Virus genome (UHGV): UHGV-0066004
Reading direction: 5' to 3' (one strand)
Length of the DNA: 64,000 nt
DNA from: a virus
Shown: positions 1-13,282 of the stretch, piece by piece
How positions within the stretch are numbered: the stretch's first letter is position 1
Layout of the letters: each line of letters begins with the position of its first letter
Program-made: the position numbers and the translations under genes
Notes under the pieces: generated by a model
The model's database searches: none
Seen by the model: the letters and a program-made list of their open reading frames with translations, nothing else
What the model was told of the DNA's origin: nothing

Positions 1-1277
1 TCAACTTCCAAAGCACCTACTGCAACAGTCTTCTGAATATAAGAACCAATTGCTTCAAGGTCTGGAGTTTCGATATCATCATAAGTGATTTGTACATGTT
101 CTTCATCGTCCCACATATTAAGAGCATAAGTCTGTGCAACTAAATCACGGTTAATTACATTCTTAATTTGCTTCAGTAGGATATCTACCGACATTGCTAG
201 TAAGCTTGTCTTAGAATCTGCAAGAGAGAATGAACCATATTTTGACTGACCCATAGCAAGAACATCCGACATAAATGCCATCATGATTTGCTTGGAATAT
301 CTGTCAATGATAGAACCTGTATCATATGCTTTAGCACCCTGTCTAGAAACTAATGAGAACTCAAAGATATCCTCTTTAGTATCTGGGTCGATATATCTAG
401 GCCAGATTAAACCTGCTCTATCGTTAGCAATCATATCGTTAACAACAGTTTTGCAGTATTGTACGAAAGCTTTCTTTTCAGGTTCTGCATTTTCATCCAG
501 ATAATCTGGTGGTAAACCAATCTTTGGCATACCTACCAAGTCTCTTGAAACGCCAACAGCTTCGTACTCTTCAATCTGAACTTTATACTTCCACGGTACA
601 TAAGCATTAAGTAATGGTGAACGACCTTCTGGGTTTCCATATTCATCGTCATACTTAAACAGCATGAATTTAGCTCGTGGAAGTTTTCTTGTTAGCGGTC
701 TTTCTCCAAGATTAATTGCTCCAGCAATATGTGAAACATTTCTCAGATTCTGTCTAACACCAGTAACTTTTCTAAAGTCTTCGTCAAAATACCACTTATC
801 AAGTGTTGATTGGTTTCTGATTGGTAATTTAGCCCATCCAATTAGACCATCATCAAATTTTGACTGGTACTTTCCTTTTTTACCCTGTCGCTTCTTATAA
901 ACTTTCTCGTTAACACAGAACCCATAAGTGCAGAATGACATTACAGAGTTAATAAAATCTGCCCAATCATGCTCCATGTCATCCATTAAAGAATTAAAGA
1001 AGTCTGCTCTCTCAAGCATTTTAGGGTCTTGCTCTTTTCCCTTTGGAGGTACGAATCTCCAGTTGACTTTTCTGACAAACATCTTAATAATATTTACAGA
1101 TGCTGCTACAGCAGGGTCACGCATCATTAATTGGAAAGTTTTAATACTTTCAGGGAACCTTAGTGCCTGACGAGGTTCTTCATAGATTCTTCCATTCTTA
1201 ACCTTCAGACCCAAAGAACCTACTTCACCCATTCTAAATGGTGGTAAGCTTTCTTGTGTTTCTGTAATATCTGCCAT
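1..1277 (-). CDS. putative portal protein, partial (gene continues beyond window start)
   Basis: Minus-strand frame starting ATG at 1277 stays open to position 1 on manual translation; lies directly downstream of terL; portal identity is by synteny only. Confidence 0.4.
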   Translation of the reverse strand, partial: MADITETQESLPPFRMGEVGSLGLKVKNGRIYEEPRQALRFPESIKTFQLMMRDPAVAASVNIIKMFVRKVNWRFVPPKGKEQDPKMLERADFFNSLMDDMEHDWADFINSVMSFCTYGFCVNEKVYKKRQGKKGKYQSKFDDGLIGWAKLPIRNQSTLDKWYFDEDFRKVTGVRQNLRNVSHIAGAINLGERPLTRKLPRAKFMLFKYDDEYGNPEGRSPLLNAYVPWKYKVQIEEYEAVGVSRDLVGMPKIGLPPDYLDENAEPEKKAFVQYCKTVVNDMIANDRAGLIWPRYIDPDTKEDIFEFSLVSRQGAKAYDTGSIIDRYSKQIMMAFMSDVLAMGQSKYGSFSLADSKTSLLAMSVDILLKQIKNVINRDLVAQTYALNMWDDEEHVQITYDDIETPDLEAIGSYIQKTVAVGALEV

Positions 1278-1293
1278 TCTTCTCACCTAGCTA

Positions 1294-2895: not shown

Positions 2896-2916
2896 TAAGC
2901 ACCTCCGCAAATAGAA

Positions 2917-3117
2917 TTATTCAGAGTCTGTAGCAGTCTCTTCTTTCTTAACTTCGAACTTTGCATCAACAGCATCAAGAAGTGCATCCATAGATGCTTC
3001 TTTAATATCAATGCCTGTTGCTACAGATAATCTGTCTGCAATTGCCATGATAGTATTCTGCATAAATTCTAGCTTCTTGTTAGCTTCATAAAGTTCTTTA
3101 TAAACGGTCTCGCTCAT
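2917..3117 (-). CDS. small acidic protein upstream of terL (function unknown)
   Basis: 66-aa ORF, GGAGAA SD 7 nt upstream, 6-nt gap to terL. Confidence 0.5.
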   Translation of the reverse strand: MSETVYKELYEANKKLEFMQNTIMAIADRLSVATGIDIKEASMDALLDAVDAKFEVKKEETATDSE

Positions 3118-3242
3118 TATGTTTTCTCCAAATAATTAACCATGTTTCCCCTTAAAAAAGACGGCACAGAGACCGTCAAGGAGAAACCACAATGTACGTC
3201 AGAGACATACTGTATAAGGCTTCCTATAAAGTATAACTCTGT

Positions 3243-3302
3243 AAAAAAGCCCTGTCTAAAAATACTCTTCGGTAGCGAAAGGAAGAATACTTATAGCAGG
3301 GC
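3243..3302 (-). terminator. putative intrinsic terminator after tRNA cluster
   Basis: Minus strand GCCCTG...CAGGGC stem followed by TTTTTT; long imperfect loop. Confidence 0.35.
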
Positions 3303-3342
3303 ATTATTATTATTATTTTAATTGAGAGAGAGTAAAATAAAT

Positions 3343-3418
3343 TGGAGAATCCGAAGGGACTCGAACCCTTATAAACCTGTTTTGCAGACAGGCACATAGC
3401 CATTTCTGTCACGGATTC
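3343..3418 (-). tRNA. tRNA-Cys(GCA)
   Basis: T-arm GGGTTCGAGTCCC, 7-bp acceptor pairing GAATCCG/CGGATTC, anticodon loop CTGCAAA, encoded CCA; hand-folded. Confidence 0.65.
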
Positions 3419-3422
3419 AAAT

Positions 3423-3515
3423 TGGAGGAAGATACCAGACTTGAACTGGTACACCGATTTCTCAGCTACTGGCAGTTTAGCAAACTGCTCCCTTACCTTT
3501 TAGGGTTAATCTTCC
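3423..3515 (-). tRNA. tRNA-Ser(GCT), type II
   Basis: 93 nt, long variable arm, T-arm CCAGTTCAAGTCTGG, acceptor GGAAGAT/ATCTTCC, loop TTGCTAA. Confidence 0.6.
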
Positions 3516-3517
3516 AT

Positions 3518-4252
3518 TTATTTCTGTAATGCGTTCTTCATTTCTGGTGTTGCAATAGTGTCAATTACACCAGTTTTACAAGCATCATCAAACCAGTCTG
3601 GTAAGATACCTGCTAAGAACCCATTGATATTCGTTTTAAGGTACTCTGCAATAAGGGCAGCTTCTTCTTCAATCATCTGCACAACTTCATCTGCATAAGC
3701 TGTAATCTTTGAGATACCTTCATTAATCTTACTGACAGCTTGGTTAGCTAAATCAGAAACAGTATCAAGACCCTTGTCAATAGCGTCTTGTAAGTCACTT
3801 AATACATCGTTAACACTCTCTAGTGTACTGTTAATCGTATCAATAGCTTTTTGACCATATTCTGTAGCAACACCCATAATACCACTGAACGGTGTACAAC
3901 CAACTTGTTCTCCTGCTGCACCCATAACATTGGAATATCCCTTTGCTACCTGCATACGTGATGAAAACTCATCAATAGATTTTTGACCGTAGTCTGTCAG
4001 GGTCTTAGTAGTTGCTGTAGTGCTTGTAAGGCTTGTTGTAAAGCTGTTTAGAAGGACTGTTGTAAGTCCAGCAGCAACAAGCTTATCCTTTACTGTAGGG
4101 TCTGATACAGAGCTAATAGAGCTTACAAGTGATGTAGAGGCAGCTACGGTTCCACCGAGAACTGCTGCACCAGTAATAAGGGGGTTAGAAAACCCTTTAC
4201 CGGTTTTTAAGAGATTGAAAATCTCCTTACCTTGTTCTGTCATCTCTTTCAT
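3518..4252 (-). CDS. Ser/Thr-rich hypothetical protein inside tRNA cluster
   Basis: ORF in track; start trimmed to ATG at 4252 (AAAGGTG SD) because the upstream part overlaps tRNA-Phe. Confidence 0.45.
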   Translation of the reverse strand: MKEMTEQGKEIFNLLKTGKGFSNPLITGAAVLGGTVAASTSLVSSISSVSDPTVKDKLVAAGLTTVLLNSFTTSLTSTTATTKTLTDYGQKSIDEFSSRMQVAKGYSNVMGAAGEQVGCTPFSGIMGVATEYGQKAIDTINSTLESVNDVLSDLQDAIDKGLDTVSDLANQAVSKINEGISKITAYADEVVQMIEEEAALIAEYLKTNINGFLAGILPDWFDDACKTGVIDTIATPEMKNALQK

Positions 4253-4268
4253 TAAGCACCTTTGAAAT

Positions 4269-4345
4269 TGGTAGTCCAGTGGGATTTGAACCCTCTTCTC
4301 ATGTTTTTCAGACACGCGCTTTAACCATATAAGCTACTTGGACTA
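4269..4345 (-). tRNA. tRNA-Phe(GAA)
   Basis: T-arm GGGTTCAAATCCC, acceptor TAGTCCA/TGGACTA, loop CTGAAAA. Confidence 0.6.
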
Positions 4346-4350
4346 TAAAT

Positions 4351-4426
4351 TGGGGTGACCTACGGGATTTGAACCCGTATAGACCATGTTCACAGCATGG
4401 GTCATTACCGTTTATGATAAGGCCAC
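4351..4426 (-). tRNA. tRNA-His(GTG)
   Basis: T-arm ACGGGTTCAAATCCCGT, loop CTGTGAA, encoded CCA. Confidence 0.65.
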
Positions 4427-4457
4427 ATTTAAGGACTCTCGTAAGAATCCTTAGAAG

Positions 4458-4533
4458 TGGCAGCGGCATAAGGATTTGAACCTTAATAAGACAGCTTCAG
4501 AGACTGCTGCATTGCCAGTTATGCTATGCCGCT
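4458..4533 (-). tRNA. tRNA-Gln(CTG)
   Basis: T-arm TAAGGTTCAAATCCTTA, acceptor AGCGGCA/TGCCGCT, loop CTCTGAA. Confidence 0.55.
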
Positions 4534-4538
4534 AAATT

Positions 4539-4617
4539 TGGTACTCCATATCGGATTCGAACCGATACATAACACAGATTTTAAGTCTGGCCTCTCTGCC
4601 AATTGGAGTAATGGAGC
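4539..4617 (-). tRNA. tRNA-Leu-like (anticodon TAA?), atypical
   Basis: Perfect T-arm ATCGGTTCGAATCCGAT, discriminator A, Leu-type D-loop AATTGGCAGAG, loop CTTAAAA, but no long variable arm in my fold. Confidence 0.35.
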
Positions 4618-4619
4618 AT

Positions 4620-4695
4620 TGGCGGGGGATGTTGGAATTGAACCAACTTCTTCGATTTCAAAGACCGAGGTTTTAACCTTGTAAACTAATCCCCT
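4620..4695 (-). tRNA. tRNA-Gln(TTG)
   Basis: T-arm GTTGGTTCAATTCCAAC, loop CTTTGAA, encoded CCA. Confidence 0.55.
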
Positions 4696-4703
4696 TTAAA
4701 TCT

Positions 4704-5261
4704 TTACTTTCTCAGTGGATGAATAAAGAATGCCAACATAACTCTTTCCCTTGAGAATGCTCTTTCTTCTGGGACAACACTTTTTAGTTTCCATCCAATA
4801 TAAATTCTCCAGTAAAATTGTTTACCAAAGATTTTAATTGATGGGATAAAAGCGAATAATCCCCAAGCATTACTGTTCCACATTAGGAGATAACCTGTCT
4901 GATTATCTTCAGGGTCAGAACTTACGTTGATATTACCTTTCCACTTAGTAACATCTTTTACATCTCTTCCTAATACATGGTAAGAGAAGTTATAAGCTTT
5001 GTTTCTCCAGAGCCATCCGACTCTTTGCATGTAGACACCTAGTTTACCAATCCATCTGATATTAGCCCATCTTTTAACGTGACCTTCATCACCATCAATT
5101 GGGTTGTCATATGTCTCCATCCATCTGAACCCGAAAGGTAAGTGTCCTTTCTTCTCACTGTAGAATGGAACTACGAAAGGTGCTAAGATAACTGCTAGTA
5201 TTGCTGCAAGTGGTTCTAGCAAAGCTAAGAAAATCCATGAAGCATATTTTAAGTATCTCAT
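4704..5261 (-). CDS. membrane protein (hydrophobic N-terminus), function unknown
   Basis: 185-aa ORF between tRNA sub-clusters; N-terminal TM-like segment. Confidence 0.5.
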   Translation of the reverse strand: MRYLKYASWIFLALLEPLAAILAVILAPFVVPFYSEKKGHLPFGFRWMETYDNPIDGDEGHVKRWANIRWIGKLGVYMQRVGWLWRNKAYNFSYHVLGRDVKDVTKWKGNINVSSDPEDNQTGYLLMWNSNAWGLFAFIPSIKIFGKQFYWRIYIGWKLKSVVPEERAFSRERVMLAFFIHPLRK

Positions 5262-5500
5262 TGTCTAACCCTCGTAAGGAGGTAAGCATTATTACTTGTT
5301 TCTGAGCTTTCTGGTAACATTGTCTCAAAATTGACACTTTTAAGTTGTCTTCCACCAAAGCAATGACCAATAAATCTTTCTACTTTTATTGGGTCGCATT
5401 CCCATCCGACTTTTAAGAAAATGTGGGTATCTATAGTGGGAACCCTTACAAACTCAATACTATTGGGATTTTCATGTTCAACGACGATTAATGTTTGCAT
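5258..5500 (-). CDS. hypothetical protein
   Basis: 80-aa ORF with ATGA-type overlap onto downstream gene. Confidence 0.4.
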   Translation of the reverse strand: MQTLIVVEHENPNSIEFVRVPTIDTHIFLKVGWECDPIKVERFIGHCFGGRQLKSVNFETMLPESSETSNNAYLLTRVRQ

Positions 5501-5518
5501 AAATTCCTCTTGCTTATC

Positions 5519-5594
5519 TGGCGCAGGATAAGGGATTCGAACCCCTATTAACAGTTTCGTAGACTGTTGCTCTATCCATTTGAACTAATCCTGC
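5519..5594 (-). tRNA. tRNA-Arg(ACG)
   Basis: T-arm GGGGTTCGAATCCCT, acceptor GCAGGAT/ATCCTGC, loop CTACGAA. Confidence 0.65.
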
Positions 5595-5599
5595 AAAAT

Positions 5600-5677
5600 T
5601 GGTGTTCCAAGACGGATTCGAACCGTCACTAATACAAGGTTTGAGCTTGCATCCTCTGCCAATTGGGATACTGGAAC
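5600..5677 (-). tRNA. tRNA-Leu-like (anticodon CAA?), atypical
   Basis: T-arm GACGGTTCGAATCCGTC, D-loop CAATTGGCAGAG, loop CTCAAAC, discriminator A; short variable arm. Confidence 0.35.
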
Positions 5678-5678
5678 A

Positions 5679-5753
5679 TGGTACTCACTAAAGGACTTGA
5701 ACCTTTTTCTTCATCTTGTAAGGGTGGTGTTTTACCATATAAACTAAGCGAGT
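5679..5753 (-). tRNA. tRNA-like gene with disrupted anticodon stem (possible pseudo-tRNA)
   Basis: Good acceptor, D-arm GTTTATATGGTAAAAC and T-arm AAAGGTTCAAGTCCTTT, but I cannot pair an anticodon stem. Confidence 0.3.
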
Positions 5754-5848
5754 GTGAAAGAGGTCTGAAGTTGTGCCGCTAACTCAACTCCGTGGAATTT
5801 GTTACGGTCTTCAGTTGACACCAGCGGTCTTTCACTTGACCTCTGAAT

Positions 5849-5925
5849 TGGTGCTGCTCACAGGACTCGAACCCGCATTTCCATCCTTACAAGGGATGTG
5901 TAATAGCCAATTATACGAAAGCAGC
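5849..5925 (-). tRNA. tRNA-Thr(TGT)
   Basis: T-arm GCGGGTTCGAGTCCTGT, anticodon stem CATCC/GGATG, loop CTTGTAA. Confidence 0.65.
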
Positions 5926-5932
5926 ATTAATT

Positions 5933-6007
5933 TGGAGCATCCAGAGGGAATCGAACCCTCAACCTCAGTTTGGAAGACTGTAATTTTCCCGTTTAAACTA
6001 TGGATGC
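5933..6007 (-). tRNA. tRNA-Gly(TCC)
   Basis: T-arm GAGGGTTCGATTCCCTC, acceptor GCATCCA/TGGATGC, loop CTTCCAA. Confidence 0.6.
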
Positions 6008-6013
6008 ACTAAT

Positions 6014-6089
6014 TGGTGGAGAAGCAGGGAATTGAACCCTGTACTTAAGTTTGCAAAACTTATGTTTTAACCATGTAAACTACATCCCC
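6014..6089 (-). tRNA. tRNA-Ala(TGC)
   Basis: T-arm CAGGGTTCAATTCCCTG, anticodon stem TAAGT/ACTTA, loop TTTGCAA. Confidence 0.6.
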
Positions 6090-6095
6090 AATGTA

Positions 6096-6171
6096 TGGTA
6101 CAGGTGGAGGGAATTGAACCCATCGTCTTACTGATTAAGAGTCAGCCGCATAACCATTTTGCTACACCTGC
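6096..6171 (-). tRNA. tRNA-Lys(CTT)
   Basis: T-arm GGGTTCAATTCCC, loop CTCTTAA; paralogous to the Lys(TTT) gene at 7323. Confidence 0.55.
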
Positions 6172-6178
6172 ATTAATT

Positions 6179-6256
6179 TGGTAGGAGACAAGGGATTCGA
6201 ACCCTCAAACACCAACTTCTAAGGATGGTAGGTTTACCAATTACCGTCAATCTCCC
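6179..6256 (-). tRNA. tRNA-Leu-like (anticodon TAG?), atypical
   Basis: T-arm GAGGGTTCGAATCCCTT, D-loop TAATTGGTAAA, loop CTTAGAA, discriminator A; short variable arm. Confidence 0.35.
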
Positions 6257-6512
6257 ATTAAATCTTTTTAGAGAACTTCTAAGAACCTAAGCAACAAGGT
6301 TCCACAACAAGCTGTAATAACCTTAGAAGCCCTCTAAAAAGACCTAAAAAGGTCTTTGCATAGTCTTGTTTAATCCGGTGACTAGAACCTTTGGAGAGCT
6401 TGATATTATCTCTTCTCCGTGACACATACTAGGTGCTTTACTGTGCTTGTACGACAATACACGAGGGATACCAAAGCAACATCCGAATGAAGCTTGGCTT
6501 TAAACCTTATTA

Positions 6513-6602
6513 GGCGGTAAGTAAAGGAGTCGAACCCTCACCGTATCTCTACAGTGGCAACTGTTTTCAAGACAGTTTGGCTACCATTAGCCGCTACCTA
6601 CC
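6513..6602 (-). tRNA. tRNA-Ser(TGA), type II
   Basis: 90 nt, T-arm GAGGGTTCGACTCC, anticodon stem ACTGT/ACAGT, loop CTTGAAA, long variable arm. Confidence 0.6.
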
Positions 6603-6615
6603 CCTAATAAGACTT

Positions 6616-6698
6616 TGGCATGGGACGGAGGAGTTGAACCCCTTTGAAACGGTTTTGGAGGCCGTTGCTCATGCCTTAGAGTCTTAACATCGTCCCAT
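6616..6698 (-). tRNA. tRNA-like, 83 nt, anticodon unresolved
   Basis: Perfect acceptor ATGGGAC/GTCCCAT and T-arm GGGGTTCAACTCC; internal AACGG/CCGTT hairpin with 9-nt loop; cannot assign anticodon. Confidence 0.3.
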
Positions 6699-6840
6699 AT
6701 TATAATTCGAAGCTTACCGTATTATCTCAACACTGTAAAGCCCCTTCTCAGATTATTTACATGTTCTGGAAAACATGAGATACAGACCACCTCCCTACAG
6801 GAAGACCCGCTTAGGTCGTCTAAGTAATCTGCTAACTAAT

Positions 6841-6917
6841 TGGCACACCCTACAGGATTCGAACCTGTAACTAACGATTTAGAAGACCGTTGCTCTATCC
6901 AATTGAACTAAGGGTGC
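6841..6917 (-). tRNA. tRNA-Arg(TCT)
   Basis: T-arm ACAGGTTCGAATCCTGT, loop CTTCTAA, encoded CCA. Confidence 0.65.
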
Positions 6918-7164
6918 ATTAATCTTTAAAGACTCTCTTAGAAAGCCCTTAAAGATGCCCACCTTATTAATCATACCGTGGGCTAGTACGCCAAATTCTT
7001 TGATGAGGGATTGGAAGACCTCACTGGTGTTTAGCCTATCAAGCTACTGCCAGAAAAACATTGTCGTTTGCATTTATTTTAAATTTGCAAAATAGACGCT
7101 ACGCAACGAAAACTAAGGTTACTATAAAGTAGTCACATCTCAATGTCAACAACTTTATTGAAAT

Positions 7165-7240
7165 TGGTACTGGTAGGTGGAATCGAACCACCGATGTTCC
7201 CTTATCAGGGGAGTGTTATAACCTTCTTAACTATACCAGC
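7165..7240 (-). tRNA. tRNA-Ile(GAT)
   Basis: T-arm GGTGGTTCGATTCCACC, loop CTGATAA. Confidence 0.6.
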
Positions 7241-7241
7241 T

Positions 7242-7318
7242 TGGAGGTTCAGATGGGAATCGAACCCACATTCATAGGGCTTATGAGACCCTTGCATTAC
7301 CTTATCTGCGACTGAACC
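7242..7318 (-). tRNA. tRNA-Met(CAT), elongator-like
   Basis: T-arm TGGGTTCGATTCCCA, loop CTCATAA, G1-C72 paired. Confidence 0.6.
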
Positions 7319-7322
7319 ATAT

Positions 7323-7398
7323 TGGTAGAAGTGGAGGGATTCGAACCCATCGCCTGTCAGATTAAAAGTCTGCTGCATCACCATTCTGCTACACTTCC
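7323..7398 (-). tRNA. tRNA-Lys(TTT)
   Basis: T-arm GGGTTCGAATCCC, loop CTTTTAA. Confidence 0.55.
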
Positions 7399-7403
7399 AT
7401 TAA

Positions 7404-7546
7404 ATTATCTTTGTAGATAAGCTACCCAGACTTGCTTAAGGTCTGTAGCGATGTGCCTTGTTGGGTTTAAATCTAGAATTTACCCTTTCACCCTTTGTGG
7501 TCGCATACTCACAGGTAAGCTTAATAACTTATCTACAAAGATAATT
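7404..7546. repeat. pair of inverted 18-bp hairpin elements (TTATCTTTGTAGATAA / TTATCTACAAAGATAA) about 107 bp apart
   Basis: Exact reverse-complement arms at 7404-7421 and 7529-7546, each arm itself a 5-bp stem hairpin. Confidence 0.7.
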
Positions 7547-7589
7547 ACCAGACCGTTGTTTATCATCTTAAGTGCTACCATTACACCAA

Positions 7590-7680
7590 CTCGACATCTG
7601 CCGAGTGAAGGAATCGAACCTTCGCCTTTTCTTTACCGGAGAAATAGATTGTTTAAGTTTTGCTGTAAACGGTCTTCTGT
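7590..7680 (-). pseudogene. tRNA fragment or pseudo-tRNA (T-arm only)
   Basis: Perfect T-arm GAAGGTTCGATTCCTTC with acceptor-like 3' strand but no matching 5' acceptor strand and no CCA. Confidence 0.3.
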
Positions 7681-7826
7681 AAATTTGTTGAGCCAGACCA
7701 AGTTTAAATTTTCAAAATTAAATTGGCTTGAAATTTCATACGTTCTTGCTGTATTTGGTCTTCTGCTCCTTTAAAGGATACTCGTAAGGACCCTTTAAGG
7801 GAGGGGCTAAATAGCCCTCTCAAAAT

Positions 7827-7904
7827 TGGCGGTTACGAAGGGATTTGAACCCTCATCATCTCCCGTGACAGGGGAGTATTTTAACCAAATTAAACTACAT
7901 AACC
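7827..7904 (-). tRNA. tRNA-Asp(GTC)
   Basis: T-arm GAGGGTTCAAATCCCTT, anticodon stem CTCCC/GGGAG, loop CTGTCAC. Confidence 0.65.
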
Positions 7905-7909
7905 TTTAT

Positions 7910-7997
7910 TGGTGTGCCGTGTAGGAGTCGAACCTACCGAGTCTCAATGACAAGGGATTTACAGTCCCCACCGCTACCATCTACGGGATAACGACAC
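7910..7997 (-). tRNA. tRNA-Tyr(GTA), type II
   Basis: 88 nt, T-arm GTAGGTTCGACTCCTAC, loop CTGTAAA, long variable arm. Confidence 0.6.
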
Positions 7998-8006
7998 ATT
8001 TAAATT

Positions 8007-8083
8007 TGGCGGTTAGTCAGGGATTCGAACCCTGTGCCATTCGCTTAACAGGCGACCGCACATACCTTATATGCTTCCTAACC
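8007..8083 (-). tRNA. tRNA-Asn(GTT)
   Basis: T-arm CAGGGTTCGAATCCCTG, loop CTGTTAA. Confidence 0.55.
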
Positions 8084-8160
8084 TTAATACATTGCCAGAC
8101 CGTGTTTTTTCTTTTATCCGCAAAAAGTATTTTGTTGCTGAATACGGTCTTCTGCAAAAT

Positions 8161-8237
8161 TGGAGGCGGGTGCAGGAGTCGAACCTGCCGATACCATGCT
8201 AATGAGACATGTGAGACGCCCTTTCTCTATACCCGCA
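8161..8237 (-). tRNA. tRNA with CAT anticodon (Met, fMet or Ile2)
   Basis: T-arm GCAGGTTCGACTCCTGC, loop CTCATTA, unpaired 1-72 position. Confidence 0.45.
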
Positions 8238-8327
8238 ATTCTCAATGACCAGACCAAATATCTTCTTTGTCCGATTTCGTGTCAGATGAGTAGATTAAGT
8301 TTGCTGTAATTGGTCTTCTGTCAAAAC

Positions 8328-8405
8328 TGGCGTTCCAGAAGGGATTTGAACCCTCAGATATCCACTTTGAAAGAGTGGTGACTTTACCATTTTGTCTACT
8401 GGAAC
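8328..8405 (-). tRNA. tRNA-Glu(TTC)
   Basis: T-arm GAGGGTTCAAATCCCTT, anticodon stem CCACT/AGTGG, loop CTTTCAA. Confidence 0.65.
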
Positions 8406-8412
8406 ATTAATT

Positions 8413-8489
8413 TGGTCTCTGTTGGAGGACTTGAACCTCCGGCCTTACCGCCCCAAACGGAACGCTCTACCAAGCTGAGCTAAACAGAG
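8413..8489 (-). tRNA. tRNA-Pro(TGG)
   Basis: Canonical D-arm GCTCAGCTTGGTAGAGC, T-arm GGAGGTTCAAGTCCTCC, loop TTTGGGG. Confidence 0.6.
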
Positions 8490-8604
8490 ATAAACTTTTC
8501 AAACTCTATGTAACCACTTTAACATTATTTTTTAGTGGTTGTCAAGAACTTTTTTAAAATATTTTTCAGTATCTTAGAAAAGCTCTCGTTTCGTTTCTAT
8601 GTAG

Positions 8605-8640
8605 AACATATTAAAGGGTATCAAACACATTGTCAATACC
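8605..8640 (-). promoter_or_regulatory. sigma70-type promoter reading into tRNA cluster (TTGACA-N17-TAATAT)
   Basis: Minus strand: TTGACA, 17-bp spacer, TAATAT; a second TTGACA-N18-TAAAGT lies about 90 bp downstream. Confidence 0.6.
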
Positions 8641-8654
8641 CTTTTTAAAACTTT

Positions 8655-10070
8655 TTACCAGATATAACGGTCAATCATTACTGCTTTGAGCATTACACTG
8701 ATTGGGTCAAACTTCTCACCACCAAGCAGAGCTTTTAAAGTAGCTGGAGAAAAACCAGATACCATTGCTACACCGTTATCCTTAACAGACACTTCGCAAG
8801 TACCATTACGGTTTGCTAAGTACCAGAATACCAGTTGAGGCATTTCGTATCCAGCTTTTTTGTACTTACTCTGAATTGCTTCAAAGTTTGTACGACCGTT
8901 AGCTCCATCAACCTGATTGAACTCCATATCGGAGAAGATGATAAGCTTACTTGGCATATCTTTCTGAGTCAAGTTGTTTCTTTTACCTGTTTCAAGAATA
9001 CGGTCAAAAGCTGCTTGTAAGTTAGTTGAGCCATATTCAACGTGTCGCATCACCTGACGATGACGGTTTCGTAAATCACCACTCAGTTCGATGAAGTGAG
9101 GGTTTGTTGAATAAACCATCAACTCATTCTTAAAGCAACCTGTATTACGTTCTGCTACATACAATGCAAGTGAAACACCAATATCAAGAGCAGTAATTGA
9201 ACCAAAATTCACCCAAGACATTGAGCTTGAAACATCAGACATACACAAGATGTTTTCACCCTCTGCCATCCAGTTTGGTAGTGCTTTCCACTGCTCATTA
9301 GCAACATCTGCATTACCATACTTAACAGATTTAATTACATCGTATGGGTAAACAGCACCAGCATTAATCTTAGTCTCACCCTTTGATAAGGACTCGATGT
9401 AAGCTTTGTAGCGTTCTCCATCTTTGCGGTTAAACAGTTTTTGGTAACGTGCAGCAGCAAGTGAAGGAATCTTACTGTAGTCAATCTTACCAAACTCATT
9501 AGCAGAGATTTTTTGCTCAACTGTATCAGATAGTGCAGACAACAGTGTGCGGTACTCTTTCTCACTCAAGTTGGCAAACTTGCAGAAACGTTTTACAAAC
9601 TGCTTATGACGTGGTTTGACTCGTGGTAACCACTTAGCCGCCAAACCTGCTGTTGCAGGGTCTAGTAATGCTGCTTCTAGATGTTTGAAGGCATCTGTCT
9701 CGAAACAAGTACCTACGAAGATTTTGAAGTCATCAAAACGACCAAGTTCTGCAATCTTATCCATAATGCGAAGAACCTGCGTAGGCTCTAAAACTTTGTC
9801 TTCAATCGCTTGAAGTAAAACAGTTCTGAAGGCTTTACGCTCACCCATACCTTCTCGTACATCTCGCATATGAAGCAAAATACGAACTGCAACATCAACA
9901 TCCTCACGCAAAGCTTTGTAGAACAGGTCTGGTAAGATTTCTACGTTGCTACGGCTTGAACCAGCAGCTTTGTAAAAGTCTACAAGAGCAGACATTGATG
10001 AAGTATGGTTTACAGCACCATTTTCAGTTCGACCTGCATGAAGGTGCGCATGTTTAAATAATTCGCTCAT
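8655..10070 (-). CDS. von Willebrand factor A (vWA) domain protein, possibly TROVE/Ro-like
   Basis: 471-aa ORF; C-terminal MIDAS-type DxSxS (DVSSSM) and hydrophobic beta strands (LIIFSDMEF); TROVE assignment is a guess. Confidence 0.55.
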   Translation of the reverse strand: MSELFKHAHLHAGRTENGAVNHTSSMSALVDFYKAAGSSRSNVEILPDLFYKALREDVDVAVRILLHMRDVREGMGERKAFRTVLLQAIEDKVLEPTQVLRIMDKIAELGRFDDFKIFVGTCFETDAFKHLEAALLDPATAGLAAKWLPRVKPRHKQFVKRFCKFANLSEKEYRTLLSALSDTVEQKISANEFGKIDYSKIPSLAAARYQKLFNRKDGERYKAYIESLSKGETKINAGAVYPYDVIKSVKYGNADVANEQWKALPNWMAEGENILCMSDVSSSMSWVNFGSITALDIGVSLALYVAERNTGCFKNELMVYSTNPHFIELSGDLRNRHRQVMRHVEYGSTNLQAAFDRILETGKRNNLTQKDMPSKLIIFSDMEFNQVDGANGRTNFEAIQSKYKKAGYEMPQLVFWYLANRNGTCEVSVKDNGVAMVSGFSPATLKALLGGEKFDPISVMLKAVMIDRYIW

Positions 10071-10151
10071 ATTTTACTCTCTTCTCTCATTTGTTTGTTG
10101 ATGTGACAGACTTTAAAGCAACTTTGTAGAGTCTGTCAACACCTTTTAAAA

Positions 10152-10523
10152 TTATTTTTTGAGAGTCGCTACAGCAGAGAACGTTGGTTTGTTATCTGTC
10201 TGAGACTGACCACCATTATCAGGGGTCTTCTTAGTGTCTGCTGCAATCGCTTTCATCTCACCTGCTGAGTGAGTCATGATGGTTTTACCAGCCTCCATCA
10301 TCGACTTCAGGTTTACATCGTCAGTCGTCAAACCGAACTCTGCAAGCTTAGCAGCATCCCTTGTAACAACCGCCTCAAACAACTTTGCAGCAAACTCAGC
10401 AGAATTATCAATGGTCAGTTGAGCTTTTACAAGTGAGCTTTTGTTACGAGAGCCTTTTGGTCTTCCAGATGGGTTTCCAGACTGGCCTTTTTTAAACTGG
10501 CCTTTGTTTGTTCTGTTTTTCAT
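10152..10523 (-). CDS. hypothetical basic protein (GNPSGRPKG N-terminal motif)
   Basis: 123-aa ORF, first gene of minus-strand unit diverging from plus-strand cluster. Confidence 0.5.
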   Translation of the reverse strand: MKNRTNKGQFKKGQSGNPSGRPKGSRNKSSLVKAQLTIDNSAEFAAKLFEAVVTRDAAKLAEFGLTTDDVNLKSMMEAGKTIMTHSAGEMKAIAADTKKTPDNGGQSQTDNKPTFSAVATLKK

Positions 10524-10698
10524 TGGTATGCCTCTTATAAGACCTCTTAAAAGGCTTTTAAGATAAAAGATAGATATCCAGAAAGATATCTGTTTAAATA
10601 GCCTTTTTAGAGGAACCTTTTAAGTTATCTTCTAAGTATTTATAAGCCTACACCTTGTCAAGTACTTTGTCAACAACTTTTTTAACTTGCAATAGTTC

Positions 10699-10727
10699 TT
10701 GACTTGTTGTATGGATTACTGTACCAT
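10699..10727 (+). promoter_or_regulatory. candidate promoter TTGACT-N17-TACCAT
   Basis: Same TTGAC(A/T)-N17-TACCAT architecture recurs at 59757-59785; preceded by conserved CCTTGTCAAGTACTTTGTCAAC element at 10653-10674. Confidence 0.35.
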
Positions 10728-10915
10728 CTTACTTAAAGCTGTAGGTCTGCCTTGTTCTACAAAGGAGACTTAATGAGAAAATCAAATAAACCGAAGAAAG
10801 GTAAGAATACCAATCACTGTAAGGAATCAAAAAGGGTAGAATTAATCTACTATTCATCCTCTGAAATTGGTCTGTACCTGTTCTTTCAAAATTACAGAAG
10901 ACAAGAGGATTATCT

Positions 10916-11149
10916 ATGTGTAGTTCCCAATTAGAAATCGCAGATATTATAGATTTATATCAAACTGCAAAGAGTCATGGCTATATAACCTCAATTGGAA
11001 AGAATAGTCACTATGATGCTTTGACTGGAATGTATTTCAGGGCAATGGCTCAATCTAGTGAACAACACTTAGTGGTTTCTTCCAGTGAGTTTACTTCGTT
11101 TCTCTATTGCAGCAAAATTATAAATCGCAGGAGAACTGAAAAATGTTAA
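10916..11149 (+). CDS. hypothetical protein
   Basis: ORF in track, co-directional with downstream cluster. Confidence 0.3.
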   Translation: MCSSQLEIADIIDLYQTAKSHGYITSIGKNSHYDALTGMYFRAMAQSSEQHLVVSSSEFTSFLYCSKIINRRRTEKC

Positions 11150-11733
11150 CAGTAAGTTTTAATTACAATAGTGATGGCTCTGTATCAATTAACTCACCAT
11201 ATGCAAATGACCTACTTAAAGAGCTAGTCAATCAGTGTGAGAGGGGTCTTCACTATGTTCAAAATTCTTTTAAACAGAAGACTATTGCTAATAACTTGAT
11301 GCGTGTAACAGTGACGGCATCGAATCCAAATTATGACTTTGATAGTGAAAGTCCGTACTCATTAGTTGCGCTTGGAGAGAGCAGCCAATTCAAACTTGTT
11401 TGCCACGACTCAGAAACATTCCTTAAGGTATTTTCCAACCTTGTCCATAATAATAAGTGCAGCTACGTTGATGGTAGTGTAAACTTCTACCCAGCAAACT
11501 ATACATGTTTGTTAATTGATAATATGAGAAAAAGTAAGCAAGAACCTACAGAAATTTCATTTGATGTGAACTCTAGTCCAGACGCAGAAACAAGTAAGAA
11601 CTTTGATATGAGTTACGCATTGTCACTCAGTAAGAAATCCGAGTTCATTGATTATGTCAATGGATTTGGTTTTAAGTTTGATGAGAGTATGAATCTTAAA
11701 AAACTTAAGAACCTACTTAAGACCAAAGCTTAA
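11143..11733 (+). CDS. hypothetical protein
   Basis: 196-aa ORF, overlaps neighbour by 7 nt. Confidence 0.5.
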   Translation: MLTVSFNYNSDGSVSINSPYANDLLKELVNQCERGLHYVQNSFKQKTIANNLMRVTVTASNPNYDFDSESPYSLVALGESSQFKLVCHDSETFLKVFSNLVHNNKCSYVDGSVNFYPANYTCLLIDNMRKSKQEPTEISFDVNSSPDAETSKNFDMSYALSLSKKSEFIDYVNGFGFKFDESMNLKKLKNLLKTKA

Positions 11734-11780
11734 GTGTGAATAGGGGCTGATGCCCCTTTAACTATTTATAAGGATATTTA

Positions 11781-12152
11781 ATGAAGGCTAAGAGTGCAAA
11801 AGACTTTTATTGCTTCCTACAATCCTATATCAATTCCGTGAAAAATGGTGAAAGATACAATCTTAATGATGTTATCCCAACACCTTTGACATGGAGACTC
11901 AGTAAATGGCCTGAAGAAGATATTACACCAACAAGAGAACAACGCACCTACAAACCTGAAATCAACATTCCAGATTCTGAGAATCTATTATATCCAATGT
12001 TCCATATTGTTGGTCTTGGAAGATTCCTTATGGATATCCAGTATGTAATTGGTAAAGGTTATAAGGTTAAAGGCATTGTTGTTGGTGATGTATCTCCGCA
12101 TCACAAAGGTTATTTTAGACTAAACGCACATTTAGAGGCTAAAAAGAAATGA
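11781..12152 (+). CDS. hypothetical protein, paralog of N-terminal domain of the Ig-repeat protein
   Basis: Roughly 110-aa region alignable by eye with N-terminus of the next gene (shared FMDLQY-type motif, W-P-E-x-D-I). Confidence 0.5.
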   Translation: MKAKSAKDFYCFLQSYINSVKNGERYNLNDVIPTPLTWRLSKWPEEDITPTREQRTYKPEINIPDSENLLYPMFHIVGLGRFLMDIQYVIGKGYKVKGIVVGDVSPHHKGYFRLNAHLEAKKK

Positions 12153-13282
12153 TTAAAGCAAAGACTTACCCAGACTTCAAAGAGTTTGTGAAGGGCTTCA
12201 TTGCAAATGTAAAGGCTGGTAAGAGATATGATTTTAGAACATATCAAGAGGCTATTTTACCACTCACCTATAGTTCATATTGGCCTGAAGCTGATATTGC
12301 AGAAGTTGAGAAGTTTGACTACAAACCAGACTACAAAGTTCCATTTAGTGATGAGTTGCTTTACAGCGTTGGTGCTCAAATGAGAACGTCTGACTTCTTC
12401 ATGGACTTACAATATGCAATTATCAATGGTAAAGACGTTGATACAGTTTATTGTGAATGGCTGGCAAGAGTTAAACCGTTCTCAATGTTGAATGCTAAGT
12501 TGAAGGATGCTATCAAGCCACCATCAATCACTCAGCAACCAACCAATCAAACAGTAAATGAAGGGGGTACACTTACCCTAATCGTTATTGCAACTAATGC
12601 CACTGGATATCAATGGAAAAAGGATGGTGAGGACATCCCTAGTGCCAATTCTGCAACTTACACAAAACAGTCAGTAGCACCTTCTGACGCTGGTTCATAC
12701 ACTTGTGTTGTATCTGGAGAGGGTGGAACAAGTGTTACCTCAGATGCAGCAACAGTGACTGTGAACGCACTACCTGTGATTACACAACAACCTTCTAGCC
12801 AGACCATCAATGAGGGTGGAAACATCAGCTTGGAAGTGACTGCAACGGGTGCAACGGGTTACCAGTGGAAGAAAGATGGCTCTGACATTCCTTCAGCGAC
12901 AAATGCTACCTATAGCAAGTCTGGTGCTCTGCCAGCAGATGCAGGTTCATACACTTGCGTTGTAACAGGTGCAGGTGGTTCTGTTACTTCTAGCCCTGCA
13001 ACAGTTACTGTGAATGCACTTCCGGTAATCACTCAGCAACCAACCAATCAAGAAATCACTGAAGGTGAGACCTTAACACTGAATGTTGTGGCAACAGGTG
13101 CGACAGGTTATCAGTGGAAGAAAGGGGAGGAAGACATCCTCGATGCAACTACTGCAACTTACACCAAAGAAGGTGCAACCACTGCTGATGCAGGAAGCTA
13201 CACCTGTGTAGTGACTGGCGCAGGTGGCTCTGTAACATCTAATGCGGCAACAGTTACAGTTAACCCAGCAGGGGAGGCATAA
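12149..13282 (+). CDS. protein with three tandem Ig-like domains
   Basis: Three ~83-aa repeats with I-set-like signature (YQWKKDG...ATYT...AGSYTCVV); nucleotide-level tandem repeats. Confidence 0.65.
   Translation: MIKAKTYPDFKEFVKGFIANVKAGKRYDFRTYQEAILPLTYSSYWPEADIAEVEKFDYKPDYKVPFSDELLYSVGAQMRTSDFFMDLQYAIINGKDVDTVYCEWLARVKPFSMLNAKLKDAIKPPSITQQPTNQTVNEGGTLTLIVIATNATGYQWKKDGEDIPSANSATYTKQSVAPSDAGSYTCVVSGEGGTSVTSDAATVTVNALPVITQQPSSQTINEGGNISLEVTATGATGYQWKKDGSDIPSATNATYSKSGALPADAGSYTCVVTGAGGSVTSSPATVTVNALPVITQQPTNQEITEGETLTLNVVATGATGYQWKKGEEDILDATTATYTKEGATTADAGSYTCVVTGAGGSVTSNAATVTVNPAGEA
12520..13272 (+). repeat. three tandem ~250-bp coding repeats (Ig-like modules)
   Basis: Near-identical stretches such as atcactcagcaaccaaccaatcaa recur at a ~250-bp period. 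Confidence 0.7.

What the first reader, a model, noticed from the sequence alone, without database searches (positions are those of the whole stretch)
8605..10070. vWA (MIDAS) protein transcribed with a near-consensus promoter directly upstream of the tRNA cluster
The 471-aa protein ends in a vWA-like fold with a DxSxS MIDAS motif, and its N-terminal about 300 aa could be TROVE-like. Ro60-type proteins combine TROVE and vWA and bind tRNA-like Y RNAs, so the location beside a tRNA cluster that includes atypical tRNA-like genes suggests a possible RNA-protein partnership.
Basis: inference. Interest (0 to 1): 0.5.

Follow-up and report, generated by a model that had tools for sequence, protein, structure and literature searches.

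The report
Phage Ro60-like protein with Y-like RNAs
This Felix O1-type phage gene encodes a divergent relative of the RNA-binding ring protein Ro60, and beside it, inside the tRNA cluster, lie four copies of a conserved small RNA that is absent from Rfam and follows this protein family across very different phages, so the two probably form an RNA-protein particle.

Summary
ORF 8655..10070 (- strand, 471 aa) has an invariant MIDAS motif and sits 165 nt upstream of 26 same-strand tRNA genes.

Databases already label the family 'RNA-binding' or 'Ro-like', so that part is not new.

What appears new is an RNA partner. A 55-75 nt element has a 7-bp terminal stem, an invariant CAGCAA after the 5' strand and UG after the 3' strand. 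It occurs four times in the window's tRNA cluster. One 126-nt copy carries a permuted tRNA-like module (T arm, closed acceptor hairpin, D arm), which is the design of bacterial YrlA.

A covariance model found such elements:
- on the gene strand in 62 of 62 hits across 41 of 75 diverged loci;
- next to the gene in 8 of 9 held-out phages (Listeria, Staphylococcus, Rhizobium, Campylobacter and others);
- in none of the canonical-Ro loci or the T5 tRNA region.

A reverse search from RNA to protein gave 29/58 against 0/25.

Binding and function are untested.

The parts
8655..10070 (-). CDS, 471 aa, DUF2828 + DUF7788 family (PHROG 850); predicted Ro60-like ring protein
9276..10070 (-). N-terminal all-helical domain (aa 1-265, pI 9.2), TROVE-like by predicted fold. 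It carries invariant R40, R69, R72, R78, R111, K146 and W147.
   Evidence: Sequence-level TROVE match is absent except for aa 235-265.
8706..9263 (-). C-terminal vWA domain (aa 270-455; Pfam DUF7788), homologous to the Ro60 vWA domain
9222..9236 (-). MIDAS DxSxS motif (D279 V S281 S S283); T349 and D381 complete the site
10110..10139 (-). promoter-like site TTGACA-18-TAAAGT upstream of the CDS
   Evidence: annotated as a promoter in MZ726791; function not tested
8608..8644 (-). 12-bp hairpin directly after the stop codon; it contains promoter-like site TTGACA-17-TAATAT (8636..8608)
8516..8545 (-). promoter-like site TTGACA-18-TAAAGT (with TG) just before tRNA-Pro
8251..8316 (-). short CAGCAA-stem RNA element 1, between tRNA-Glu and tRNA-Met: stem AGACCAA/UUGGUCU, CAGCAA at 8306..8301
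   Evidence: (41.6 bits, E 1e-6)
8097..8150 (-). short CAGCAA-stem RNA element 2; it fills the spacer between tRNA-Met and tRNA-Asn: stem AGACCGU/ACGGUCU, CAGCAA at 8140..8135
   Evidence: (41.7 bits, E 9e-7)
7695..7761 (-). short CAGCAA-stem RNA element 3: stem AGACCAA/UUGGUCU, CAGCAA at 7751..7746
   Evidence: (36.1 bits, E 2e-5)
7550..7675 (-). long CAGCAA-stem RNA with a permuted tRNA-like module (YrlA-like). Parts: 5' stem 7675-7668, CAGCAA 7665-7660, anticodon-arm-like hairpin 7645-7628, T arm 7623-7607, closed acceptor hairpin 7606-7589, D arm 7587-7571, 3' stem 7557-7550.
3343..8489 (-). cluster of 26 tRNA genes downstream of the CDS on the same strand; it hosts the four RNA elements

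Best explanation
The gene encodes a divergent Ro60-type protein: a basic alpha-helical TROVE-like domain closed by a vWA domain with an intact MIDAS site. It belongs to a large phage family (Pfam DUF2828/DUF7788, PHROG 850).

The family has its own class of Y-like non-coding RNAs. These are encoded in tandem on the same strand, next to the gene or among the phage tRNA genes. In this phage three short copies (about 55-67 nt) and one long copy (126 nt) lie in spacers of the tRNA cluster. They would be released from the tRNA precursor transcripts by ordinary tRNA 5' and 3' processing (inferred).

All copies share a 7-8 bp terminal stem followed on the 5' strand by NUN-CAGCAA and on the 3' strand by UG. 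I take this module to be the protein-binding site, by analogy with the Ro-binding stem shared by YrlA and YrlB (inferred). The long copy adds a tRNA mimic whose acceptor stem is closed by a loop, as in bacterial YrlA.

By analogy with Rsr/Y RNA/PNPase in Deinococcus and Salmonella and with phiLo phage Ro60, the particle most likely works in surveillance or repair of structured RNA, above all tRNA, during infection. The RNA would act as an adaptor or gate that couples the ring to a host exoribonuclease or to tRNA-handling enzymes (inferred, least certain).

Status of each step:
- Shown here: the predicted fold, the conserved MIDAS site, the RNA family, and its association with the gene.
- Not shown: binding, processing, and function.
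For: Fold.
- The model is confident.
- Foldseek's top 12 hits are all Ro60 structures, aligned over the full length.
- An HMM of the family has Ro60 as two of its three weak PDB hits, aligned at the MIDAS strand.
- hhalign to canonical Ro profiles gives 86%, E 5e-6 over the vWA domain plus the last TROVE helices.

Independent annotation.
- PHROG 850 is named 'RNA-binding protein'.
- SEA-PHAGES names cluster L homologues 'Ro-like RNA binding protein'.
- HHpred's best hit for the Listeria phage homologue is Rsr (PMC12282133).

tRNA linkage.
- In 75 diverged viral loci, 35 have tRNAs within 8 kb and 18 within 1 kb; all 240 tRNAs are on the gene strand.
- All 9 held-out annotated phages have a tRNA on the gene strand in the fetched stretch; in 7 it is a cluster next to the gene.

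RNA family.
- The strict T-arm / closed-acceptor / D-arm descriptor gives about 30 hits against 0-1 in shuffles. It recovers the Rfam YrlA sites in canonical-Ro control loci.
- 20 of 21 such modules carry a perfect 7-bp outer stem plus a CAGCAA-type motif that the descriptor did not require.
- Model R1 gives 62/62 hits on the gene strand in 41/75 loci.
- Held-out phages of Firmicutes, Alphaproteobacteria, Campylobacterota and Gammaproteobacteria have hits directly beside the gene, with E down to 6e-8.
- There are no hits in the canonical-Ro loci, in the other 60 kb of the window, or in the 30-kb T5 tRNA region.
- Reverse test: among exact matches to AAAGGATNNNTACAGCAAA in all of IMG/VR, 29/58 with a 3' stem have a DUF2828 gene in the held stretch, always on the same strand, against 0/25 without a stem (Fisher p 2e-6).
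- Felix-related genera keep the closed acceptor hairpin through compensatory changes.

Expression and context in a relative.
- Abundant unannotated transcripts lie within 2 kb upstream of the homologue in Listeria phage CKA15 (PMC12282133).
- RtcB and RNA ligase genes follow the homologue in Listeria phage WIL-1. An RNA ligase 2 gene lies 4.3 kb downstream of the homologue in the Rhizobium phage. LeBron encodes an RNA ligase and a polynucleotide kinase elsewhere in its genome.
Against: - There is no Pfam TROVE match, and no sequence-level alignment of the first roughly 230 residues to Ro60. TROVE likeness rests on a predicted structure.
- Rfam YrlA does not hit the window or other DUF2828 loci. 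The YrlA motif GNCGAAN0-1G is absent from the outer stem.
- No binding, processing or expression data exist for this phage.
- 34 of 75 diverged loci and Acinetobacter phage ME3 gave no R1 hit at E <= 0.01. Model sensitivity is unknown.
- The training elements were chosen by requiring a perfect stem, so the pairing statistics are circular. CM E-values come from a short calibration.
- The Listeria homologue was found in purified virions, and a Salmonella phage homologue is annotated 'structural protein'. This could point to a different role.
- No RNA-repair enzyme is adjacent in this window.
Confidence: 0.7

Rival explanations
1. The protein is a vWA/MIDAS protein-protein adaptor, for example a virion-associated or assembly/chaperone factor. 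Its helical N-terminus resembles Ro60 only superficially, and it has no RNA partner.
For: The Listeria phage CKA15 homologue was detected in purified particles with 57% coverage (PMC12282133). The Salmonella phage 7t3 homologue is annotated 'structural protein'. The MIDAS site is invariant, and MIDAS sites usually bind proteins. There is no Pfam TROVE hit.
Against: The 12 best Foldseek hits are only Ro60 structures, aligned over the full length, and no other helical-repeat protein appears. The gene is linked to tRNA clusters and to a specific RNA family in very different phages. No MoxR-type ATPase partner lies in the window. Presence in virions does not exclude an RNA-binding role.
Confidence: 0.1
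2. The CAGCAA-stem elements are real RNA signals but are not ligands of this protein. They could be processing or termination signals of early or tRNA transcripts, or leaders and trailers that control the gene's own mRNA.
For: They lie in tRNA spacers or directly 5' or 3' of the gene, often in tandem. No binding data exist. In some lineages they sit 5-7 kb from the gene, with the tRNAs.
Against: They also flank the gene in loci with no tRNA within 8 kb, for example L009, L012, L021 and Faith1. They are absent from tRNA-rich regions of phages that lack the gene: T5 and the canonical-Ro actinophages. The same module frames a YrlA-like tRNA mimic, which is the hallmark of Ro partners. An autoregulatory role would still make them ligands of the protein.
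Confidence: 0.15
3. The tRNA-like element at 7675..7550 is a decaying permuted or tandem tRNA pseudogene with no function, and its proximity to the gene is accidental.
For: Phage tRNA clusters hold degenerate tRNAs. This window has another at 6696..6622. The anticodon-arm-like and T arms resemble a tRNA-Thr(GGU) 3' half.
Against: The same permuted architecture with the same outer module recurs in at least 18 elements from unrelated phages, including Mycobacterium, Enterococcus and Bacillus phages. Shuffles give 0-1. The element is conserved in 248 Felix-like records, and related genera show compensatory changes.
Confidence: 0.05

Closest known systems
Bacterial Ro60 (Rsr) with YrlA/YrlB or Yrn1 Y RNAs (Salmonella rsr-yrlBA-rtcBA operon; Deinococcus Rsr-Y RNA-PNPase 'RYPER')
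   Same: Predicted ring of helical repeats closed by a vWA/MIDAS domain. Small RNAs are encoded within a few kb on the same strand. There is a long RNA with a T arm, closed acceptor hairpin and D arm (tRNA mimic) and shorter RNAs that share the terminal-stem module. RtcB or RNA ligase genes lie nearby in some relatives (PMC4201824).
   Different: A different Pfam family: DUF2828/DUF7788, not TROVE/vWA_Ro60. The protein is about 70-80 residues shorter. The RNAs are not detected by Rfam YrlA. The conserved motif is CAGCAA rather than GNCGAAN0-1G. The long form usually has an extra hairpin before the T arm. The RNAs are embedded in phage tRNA clusters.
Phage-encoded canonical Ro60: Thermus phage phiLo phiRo60 with Yrl1/Yrl2 (PDB 9KOP, 9L5Y; PMC12135203) and actinophage 'Ro-like' proteins (Bxz1 gp220, Jada gp106, Magritte gp118) with YrlA
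   Different: Those proteins match Pfam TROVE + vWA_Ro60 and their RNAs match Rfam YrlA weakly. Model R1 finds nothing in their loci. Host range differs: canonical Ro is found in 332 mostly actinophage records, the DUF2828 family in 710 records of many host phyla.
TEP1 (vault / telomerase-associated protein) and Tetrahymena p80
   Same: TROVE + vWA module that binds small structured RNAs (established knowledge; domain scheme in 10.64898/2026.05.01.722283).
   Different: These are very large multidomain eukaryotic proteins with NACHT, WD40 and TIR-like domains. They gave no specific structural or sequence match here.
Stable RNAs of unknown function in phage tRNA clusters (T5 RNA1, RNA2, RNA3 'tRNA-like stable RNA', RNAI/III/IV/X)
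   Same: Small stable and tRNA-like RNAs encoded between phage tRNA genes (annotation of NC_005859).
   Different: T5 has no DUF2828 gene and no hit to model R1, so these are unrelated sequences.

Membership tests
DUF2828/DUF7788 phage protein family (PHROG 850) | Significant matches to PF11443 and PF25043, and a full-length match to phrog_850 | tested here: met
   PF25043 E 1.8e-43, PF11443 E 4e-29; phrog_850 E 1.7e-183 over aa 1-471; 2555 homologues, the best 120 all with both domains
Ro60 / Rsr orthologues | TROVE domain recognisable by sequence (PF05731) | tested here: not met
   No TROVE hit at E <= 1. Profile-profile comparison aligns only aa 235-447 to Ro (last TROVE helices + vWA), 86% probability. 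Control phage Ro proteins match TROVE at E 1e-36 to 1e-50.
Ro60 / Rsr orthologues | Helical-repeat TROVE domain and vWA domain arranged as in the Ro60 ring (three-dimensional fold) | tested here: met
Ro60 / Rsr orthologues | vWA domain with MIDAS motif DxSxS...T...D | tested here: met
   D279, S281, S283, T349 and D381 are invariant in 47 sequences. The motif aligns with Ro60 DVSASM.
Ro60 / Rsr orthologues | Binds Y RNA on the outer surface and single-stranded 3' ends of misfolded RNA in the central cavity | not testable with these tools
   Needs EMSA, CLIP or a structure. Only indirect support: a basic N-terminal domain (pI 9.2) with invariant Arg/Lys residues.
Ro60 / Y RNA systems | One or more Y RNAs encoded within about 4 kb of the gene on the same strand | tested here: met
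   Four candidate RNAs lie 340-1100 nt downstream on the same strand. The association is reproduced in held-out phages and in the reverse search. Transcription in this phage was not tested.
YrlA RNA family (Rfam RF02553) | Match to the YrlA covariance model | tested here: not met
   No hit at E <= 1 in window 1-12000, nor at E <= 10 in 7399-7826. Control phage YrlA loci score 27-37 bits.
YrlA RNA family (architecture) | Terminal stem formed by the 5' and 3' ends, enclosing T arm, loop-closed acceptor stem and D arm | tested here: met
   Window 7675..7550. The arm order is the same as the Rfam YrlA consensus structure. There is an extra hairpin before the T arm.
MoxR-vWA chaperone pairs | Adjacent MoxR-type AAA+ ATPase gene | tested here: not met
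   The upstream neighbour is a 123-aa DUF5681 protein and tRNAs lie downstream. Conserved neighbours in 75 loci include ClpP, DnaJ and RNase HII, but no MoxR.

The most novel reading that the evidence does not exclude
DUF2828 proteins and CAGCAA-stem RNAs form a phage-specific Ro-like particle. It may be carried in the virion. It would guard the phage and host tRNA pool against host tRNA-cleaving defences. The closed-acceptor tRNA mimic would act as a decoy or adaptor that brings cleaved or misfolded tRNAs to repair ligases (RtcB, Rnl) or to an exoribonuclease. That would make it a widespread, so far unrecognised counter-defence module in Felix O1-, KVP40-, P100- and CP81-type phages.
Probability: 0.2. 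Interest if true: 0.85.

Novelty: new variant of a known kind. Interest (0 to 1): 0.7.

Why it matters
Ro60 and Y RNAs are conserved from bacteria to humans, yet their functions are still only partly understood. This analysis ties a second, much more widespread phage family (710 of 50,697 phage records) to a defined RNA motif with precise coordinates. The family includes model and biocontrol phages such as the Felix O1 group and the P100/A511 group.

The hypothesis becomes directly testable by EMSA, CLIP and knockouts in easy E. coli and Salmonella systems. It explains part of the unannotated 'spacer' sequence in phage tRNA clusters, which public records often annotate as tiny ORFs. It also gives a candidate identity for abundant unexplained transcripts reported in a Listeria phage.

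If the particle acts on tRNA damage, it bears on the arms race between phage tRNA genes and host tRNA-targeting defences.

Tried and rejected
- Direct sequence search of PDB with the protein: no hit. NCBIfam: no hit.
- Literature search for DUF2828: only incidental plant and tardigrade mentions. The Burroughs and Aravind 2016 RNA-repair paper is not held, and the jumbo-phage paper has no held supplements.
- Rfam scans gave no family on the elements. Weak 'Dicty_Class_I_RNA' hits coincide with two elements, and I treat them as chance resemblance of a stem plus an A-rich loop.
- The GGCGAAG sequence next to the T arm (7626-7620) matches the YrlA motif GNCGAAN0-1G. In YrlA that motif lies in the outer stem, so I do not count it as evidence.
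- Conserved protein neighbours in 75 loci (ClpP, DnaJ, RNase HII, metallopeptidase, PolB) reflect lineage synteny, not an RNA-repair operon.
- The pairing statistics of the terminal stem are not used as independent evidence, because the sequences were selected for a perfect stem.
- The MAFFT alignment of the long forms (A4) was too ragged in the acceptor/D region to build a second model.
- One row of alignment A6 (L006) was given wrong coordinates and is ignored.
- The count of promoter-like sites is not above chance.
Full report
**Source and observation.** The window is a Felix O1-type phage (Felixounavirus). Region 8400-10600 is 99.6% identical to Escherichia phage vB_EcoM_ASO1A, and 253 phage records match it. 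The ORF at 8655..10070 on the - strand encodes 471 aa. ARAGORN finds 26 tRNA genes, all on the - strand, between 8489 and 3343, so the gene ends 165 nt upstream of the first one, tRNA-Pro.

The MIDAS motif is D279-V-S281-S-S283 (nt 9222-9236). In an alignment of 47 homologues down to 40% identity, D279, S281, S283, T349 and D381 are all invariant, as are many Arg/Lys residues of the N-terminal half: R40, R69, R72, R78, R111 and K146.

Three sigma-70-like sites with 10/12 matches lie on the - strand: 10139..10110 before the gene, 8636..8608 inside a 12-bp hairpin just after the stop codon, and 8545..8516 before tRNA-Pro. The number of such sites is not above shuffled expectation, so they are only sequence matches. 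One is annotated as a promoter in a public record.

**What the protein is.** Pfam assigns DUF2828 (PF11443) and DUF7788 (PF25043), not TROVE. PHROGs places it full-length in phrog_850, 'RNA-binding protein'. NCBIfam and a direct PDB sequence search give nothing.

An AlphaFold2 model built on the 47-sequence alignment is confident (mean pLDDT 89.6, pTM 0.89). It shows an all-helical N-terminal part (aa 1 to about 265) and an alpha/beta C-terminal part.

At the sequence level:
- A family HMM hits Ro60 only weakly, at the MIDAS strand (E 0.3).
- Profile-profile comparison with canonical Ro proteins (three phage Ro proteins, then 37 diverse TROVE proteins) aligns aa 235-447 at 86% probability, E 5e-6. 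This is the last TROVE helices plus the vWA domain. The first roughly 230 residues do not align.

I conclude that the protein is Ro60-like in architecture and shares its vWA domain by descent, but is a separate family and not a Pfam TROVE member. The TROVE likeness of the N-terminus rests on a predicted structure.

**Is that known?** Partly. tblastn finds the family in 710 phage records: Felix O1-like, KVP40-like Vibrio phages, Listeria/Enterococcus/Staphylococcus/Bacillus phages, Campylobacter phages, Aeromonas, Rhizobium, and Mycobacterium cluster L. Annotations range from 'hypothetical' through 'vWFA protein' and 'RNA-binding protein' to 'Ro-like RNA binding protein'.
- LeBron gp53, a member, was moderately toxic on overexpression in M. 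smegmatis (PMC13148394).
- A 2025 multi-omics study of the P100-like Listeria phage CKA15 reported Rsr as the best HHpred match of its homologue and found the protein in purified virions. It saw very abundant unannotated transcripts within 2 kb upstream, and speculated that these might be Y RNAs (PMC12282133).
- A comparative paper on jumbo phages mentions 'ROT/TROVE' proteins in some phages (PMC7824862).
- Canonical phage Ro60 is a different set: 332 mostly actinophage records, with Pfam TROVE + vWA_Ro60.

**Link with tRNA genes.** A scan of IMG/VR with the family alignment gave at least 594 loci, of which I kept 80. Among the 75 loci that are only 38-47% identical to the query, 35 have tRNA genes within the fetched 8-kb flanks and 18 within 1 kb. 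All 240 tRNAs are on the strand of the gene.

In nine annotated phages fetched later, seven have a same-strand tRNA cluster beside the gene: Listeria WIL-1 (15 tRNAs), Campylobacter CP81 (6), Vibrio Va3 (12), Yersinia P778 (26), Enterococcus VRE9_1 (17), Bacillus FADO (15) and Rhizobium RHph_I1_18 (5). Staphylococcus SEP9 has one tRNA, 2.3 kb downstream, and Acinetobacter ME3 has one, 5.6 kb downstream.

Canonical phage Ro genes also sit among tRNAs. Other conserved neighbours (ClpP, DnaJ, RNase HII) look like lineage synteny. However, WIL-1 has RtcB, an RNA ligase, and HD and NADAR proteins just downstream. The Rhizobium phage has an RNA ligase 2, a nucleotidyltransferase and a phosphoesterase nearby.

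**The RNA partner, long form.** The gaps between tRNAs in the window fold far better than shuffles: z -4.9 for 7399-7826, -4.0 for 6918-7164 and -3.7 for 6257-6512.

In 7399-7826 the Rfam tRNA model matches only an anticodon arm plus T arm (22 bits). Reading on, the T arm (7623-7607) is followed by ACUCGGC-AGAU-GUCGAGU, an acceptor stem closed by a tetraloop (7606-7589), and then by a D arm (7587-7571). The whole is enclosed by the 8-bp stem AGACCGUU/AACGGUCU (7675-7668 with 7557-7550). This is the order of arms in the Rfam YrlA consensus: terminal stem, T arm, closed acceptor, D arm.

A strict descriptor (5-bp T stem with a UUCRA-type loop, 7-bp closed acceptor, D arm with GG) behaves as follows:
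- It recovers the sites that Rfam YrlA hits weakly in the canonical-Ro control loci.
- It finds 17 further elements in 14 diverged DUF2828 loci, one in Mycobacterium phage Faith1 148 nt after the gene, and later one in the Enterococcus phage and two in the Bacillus phage.
- All lie on the gene strand and none overlaps a called tRNA.
- Block shuffles give 0-1.

**The RNA partner, shared module and short form.** In 20 of 21 of these elements a perfect 7-bp outer stem is present, with C[AC]GC[AGT][AGT] (mostly CAGCAA) 2-3 nt after its 5' strand. The descriptor did not ask for this.

The same module without the tRNA-like insert occurs as 48-75 nt elements, often in tandem arrays. Their form is AAA-[A G R N N N N]-N U H-CAGCAA-(A/U-rich 25-45 nt)-[N N N N Y C U]-G W U A A.

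The window has three of these:
- 8316..8251, between tRNA-Glu and tRNA-Met;
- 8150..8097, which fills the spacer between tRNA-Met and tRNA-Asn;
- 7761..7695.

All four copies share the flanks GCAGAAGACC...GGUCUGGC.

The stem-pair statistics look perfect (98.9% paired, every pair with double changes). They are circular, because I selected for a perfect stem, so I do not use them. The independent signals are those below.

**Tests of the association.**
1. A covariance model (R1) built from 38 short elements was run over the 75 diverged loci (1.04 Mb, both strands). It gives 62 hits at E <= 0.01, all 62 on the gene strand (binomial p 4e-19), in 41 loci. Most lie within 500 nt of the gene's start or end. 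The distant ones lie among tRNAs 5-7 kb away.
2. In loci never used for training, hits flank the gene:
   - Listeria WIL-1, three copies 70-340 nt upstream (E 6e-8, 3e-6, 3e-3);
   - Staphylococcus SEP9, three copies in the 329-nt gap after the gene;
   - Rhizobium phage, three copies in the 285-nt gap before it;
   - Bacillus FADO, Campylobacter CP81, Enterococcus VRE9_1 and Vibrio Va3, one each just upstream;
   - Yersinia P778, two copies 700-900 nt downstream;
   - Acinetobacter ME3, none.
3. Negative controls: no hit in the three canonical-Ro loci, none below E 0.5 in the remaining 60 kb of the window, and none in 30 kb of the T5 tRNA region, which has its own annotated 'stable tRNA-like RNAs'.
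4. Reverse direction: the 5' motif AAAGGATNNNTACAGCAAA has 83 exact matches in all of IMG/VR. Of these, 58 have the complementary 3' stem and 25 do not, which is about the number expected by chance. A DUF2828 homologue lies in the (often short) held stretch for 29 of the 58, always on the same strand and mostly 100-700 nt away, and for 0 of the 25 (Fisher p 2e-6).
5. Homologues collected by sequence similarity alone: the pair of elements at 7546-7770 is present in 248 Felix-like records. In the related genera Suspvirus and Mooglevirus the closed acceptor hairpin keeps pairing through U-A to A-U and G.U to U.G changes, while the other differences fall in loops and linkers.
6. Rfam 15 has no family on these elements, and the literature held here does not describe them.

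**Mechanism.**
- Shown: a predicted Ro60-like fold with an intact MIDAS site; a conserved, strand-specific RNA family with short and tRNA-mimic forms; and a tight genomic association of that family with this protein family and with tRNA clusters.
- Inferred: the RNAs are cut out of tRNA precursor transcripts by RNase P and 3' processing, because two of them occupy whole tRNA spacers. The shared stem-CAGCAA module is the protein's binding site, by analogy with the Ro-binding stem shared by YrlA and YrlB. The particle acts on structured RNA.
- Known Ro systems tether or gate a 3'-5' exoribonuclease: Rsr-Y RNA-PNPase, and phiLo Ro60 with Yrl RNAs and host PNPase (PMC4201824, PMC12135203). They are also co-regulated with RtcB in response to tRNA damage (title and abstract of PMC7790460).
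- Given the tRNA setting, and the RtcB/RNA ligase neighbours in some relatives, I favour tRNA and non-coding RNA surveillance or repair during infection. This last step is the least certain, at roughly one in three.
- Virion association of the Listeria homologue suggests the protein may enter with the DNA. That fits an early role but also keeps a structural rival alive.

**Verdict.**
- The Ro-like nature of the protein is already reflected in database names, and one paper has speculated about Y RNAs, so that part is a new member of a known kind.
- The defined CAGCAA-stem RNA family, its YrlA-like variant and its pan-phage linkage to DUF2828 proteins appear undescribed. They make this a new variant of the Ro60/Y RNA theme.
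- Confidence is about 0.9 that the protein is Ro60-like, about 0.7 that these RNAs are its partners, and about 0.3 for the proposed function.

Noticed in passing
L086 (Listeria phage WIL-1, NC_025440) 4429-4980: A ROOL RNA (Rfam RF03087, 87 bits, E 2e-16, just below the gathering score of 99) sits inside the phage tRNA cluster, about 1 kb upstream of the DUF2828 gene. It is probably the 492-nt 'most transcribed unannotated region' reported for the related phage CKA15 (PMC12282133). That link is my inference.
   Followed up: partly
window 8613-8644 (- strand): A 12-bp hairpin starts 11 nt after the stop codon of the gene and contains the -35 hexamer of a promoter-like site (8636..8608). It is also scored as terminator-like. 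It could be a combined terminator/promoter or a processing site.
   Followed up: no
window 6622-6696 (- strand): A second atypical tRNA-like sequence: acceptor stem GGCAUG/CAUGCC, an anticodon-like arm and a T arm (loop at 6639..6631) but no D arm. ARAGORN does not call it, and Rfam tRNA-Sec scores it at only 23 bits. It lacks the CAGCAA module.
   Followed up: partly
window 6257-6512, 6918-7164, 7403-7548 (- strand): Other spacers of the tRNA cluster fold much better than shuffles (z -3.7, -4.0). Each ends in a long near-perfect hairpin (up to about 24 bp) just upstream of the next tRNA. 6918-7164 also holds a promoter-like site (about 7120-7148) and weak tmRNA-like Rfam hits. Their nature is unknown.
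   Followed up: no
L181 (phage T5, NC_005859) 8285-8645, 9809-9980, 10839-11084, 11878-11950, 18849-19567: The T5 record annotates eight 'stable RNAs with unknown functions', three of them 'tRNA-like', between its tRNA genes. They do not match model R1, and T5 lacks the DUF2828 gene. Small RNAs embedded in tRNA clusters therefore seem to be a wider, unexplained phage theme.
   Followed up: partly
L086 1-5950; L180 59-963; L091 1-5940: Public records annotate many 20-40 aa 'hypothetical proteins' on both strands over tRNA genes and over the RNA elements described here. These are most likely spurious ORF calls.
   Followed up: no
L086 8075-12520: In Listeria phage WIL-1 the DUF2828 gene is followed by an HD-domain protein, RtcB ('tRNA splicing ligase'), a NADAR protein, a 'tRNA amidotransferase' and an RNA ligase. 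This RNA-repair neighbourhood recalls the Salmonella rsr-yrlBA-rtcBA operon.
   Followed up: partly
PMC12282133 (phage CKA15); H90 Salmonella phage 7t3: The DUF2828 homologue CKA15_055 was detected in purified virions (20 peptides, 57% coverage), and the 7t3 homologue is annotated 'structural protein'. The protein may be packaged and delivered with the DNA.
   Followed up: no
window 12149-13282 (+ strand): A 377-aa ORF carries three tandem repeats of about 90 aa (ITQQPxxQ...GYQWKK...AGSYTCVV...VTVN). They look like Ig-type domains, and a nearly identical phage annotates the ORF as a tail protein.
   Followed up: no
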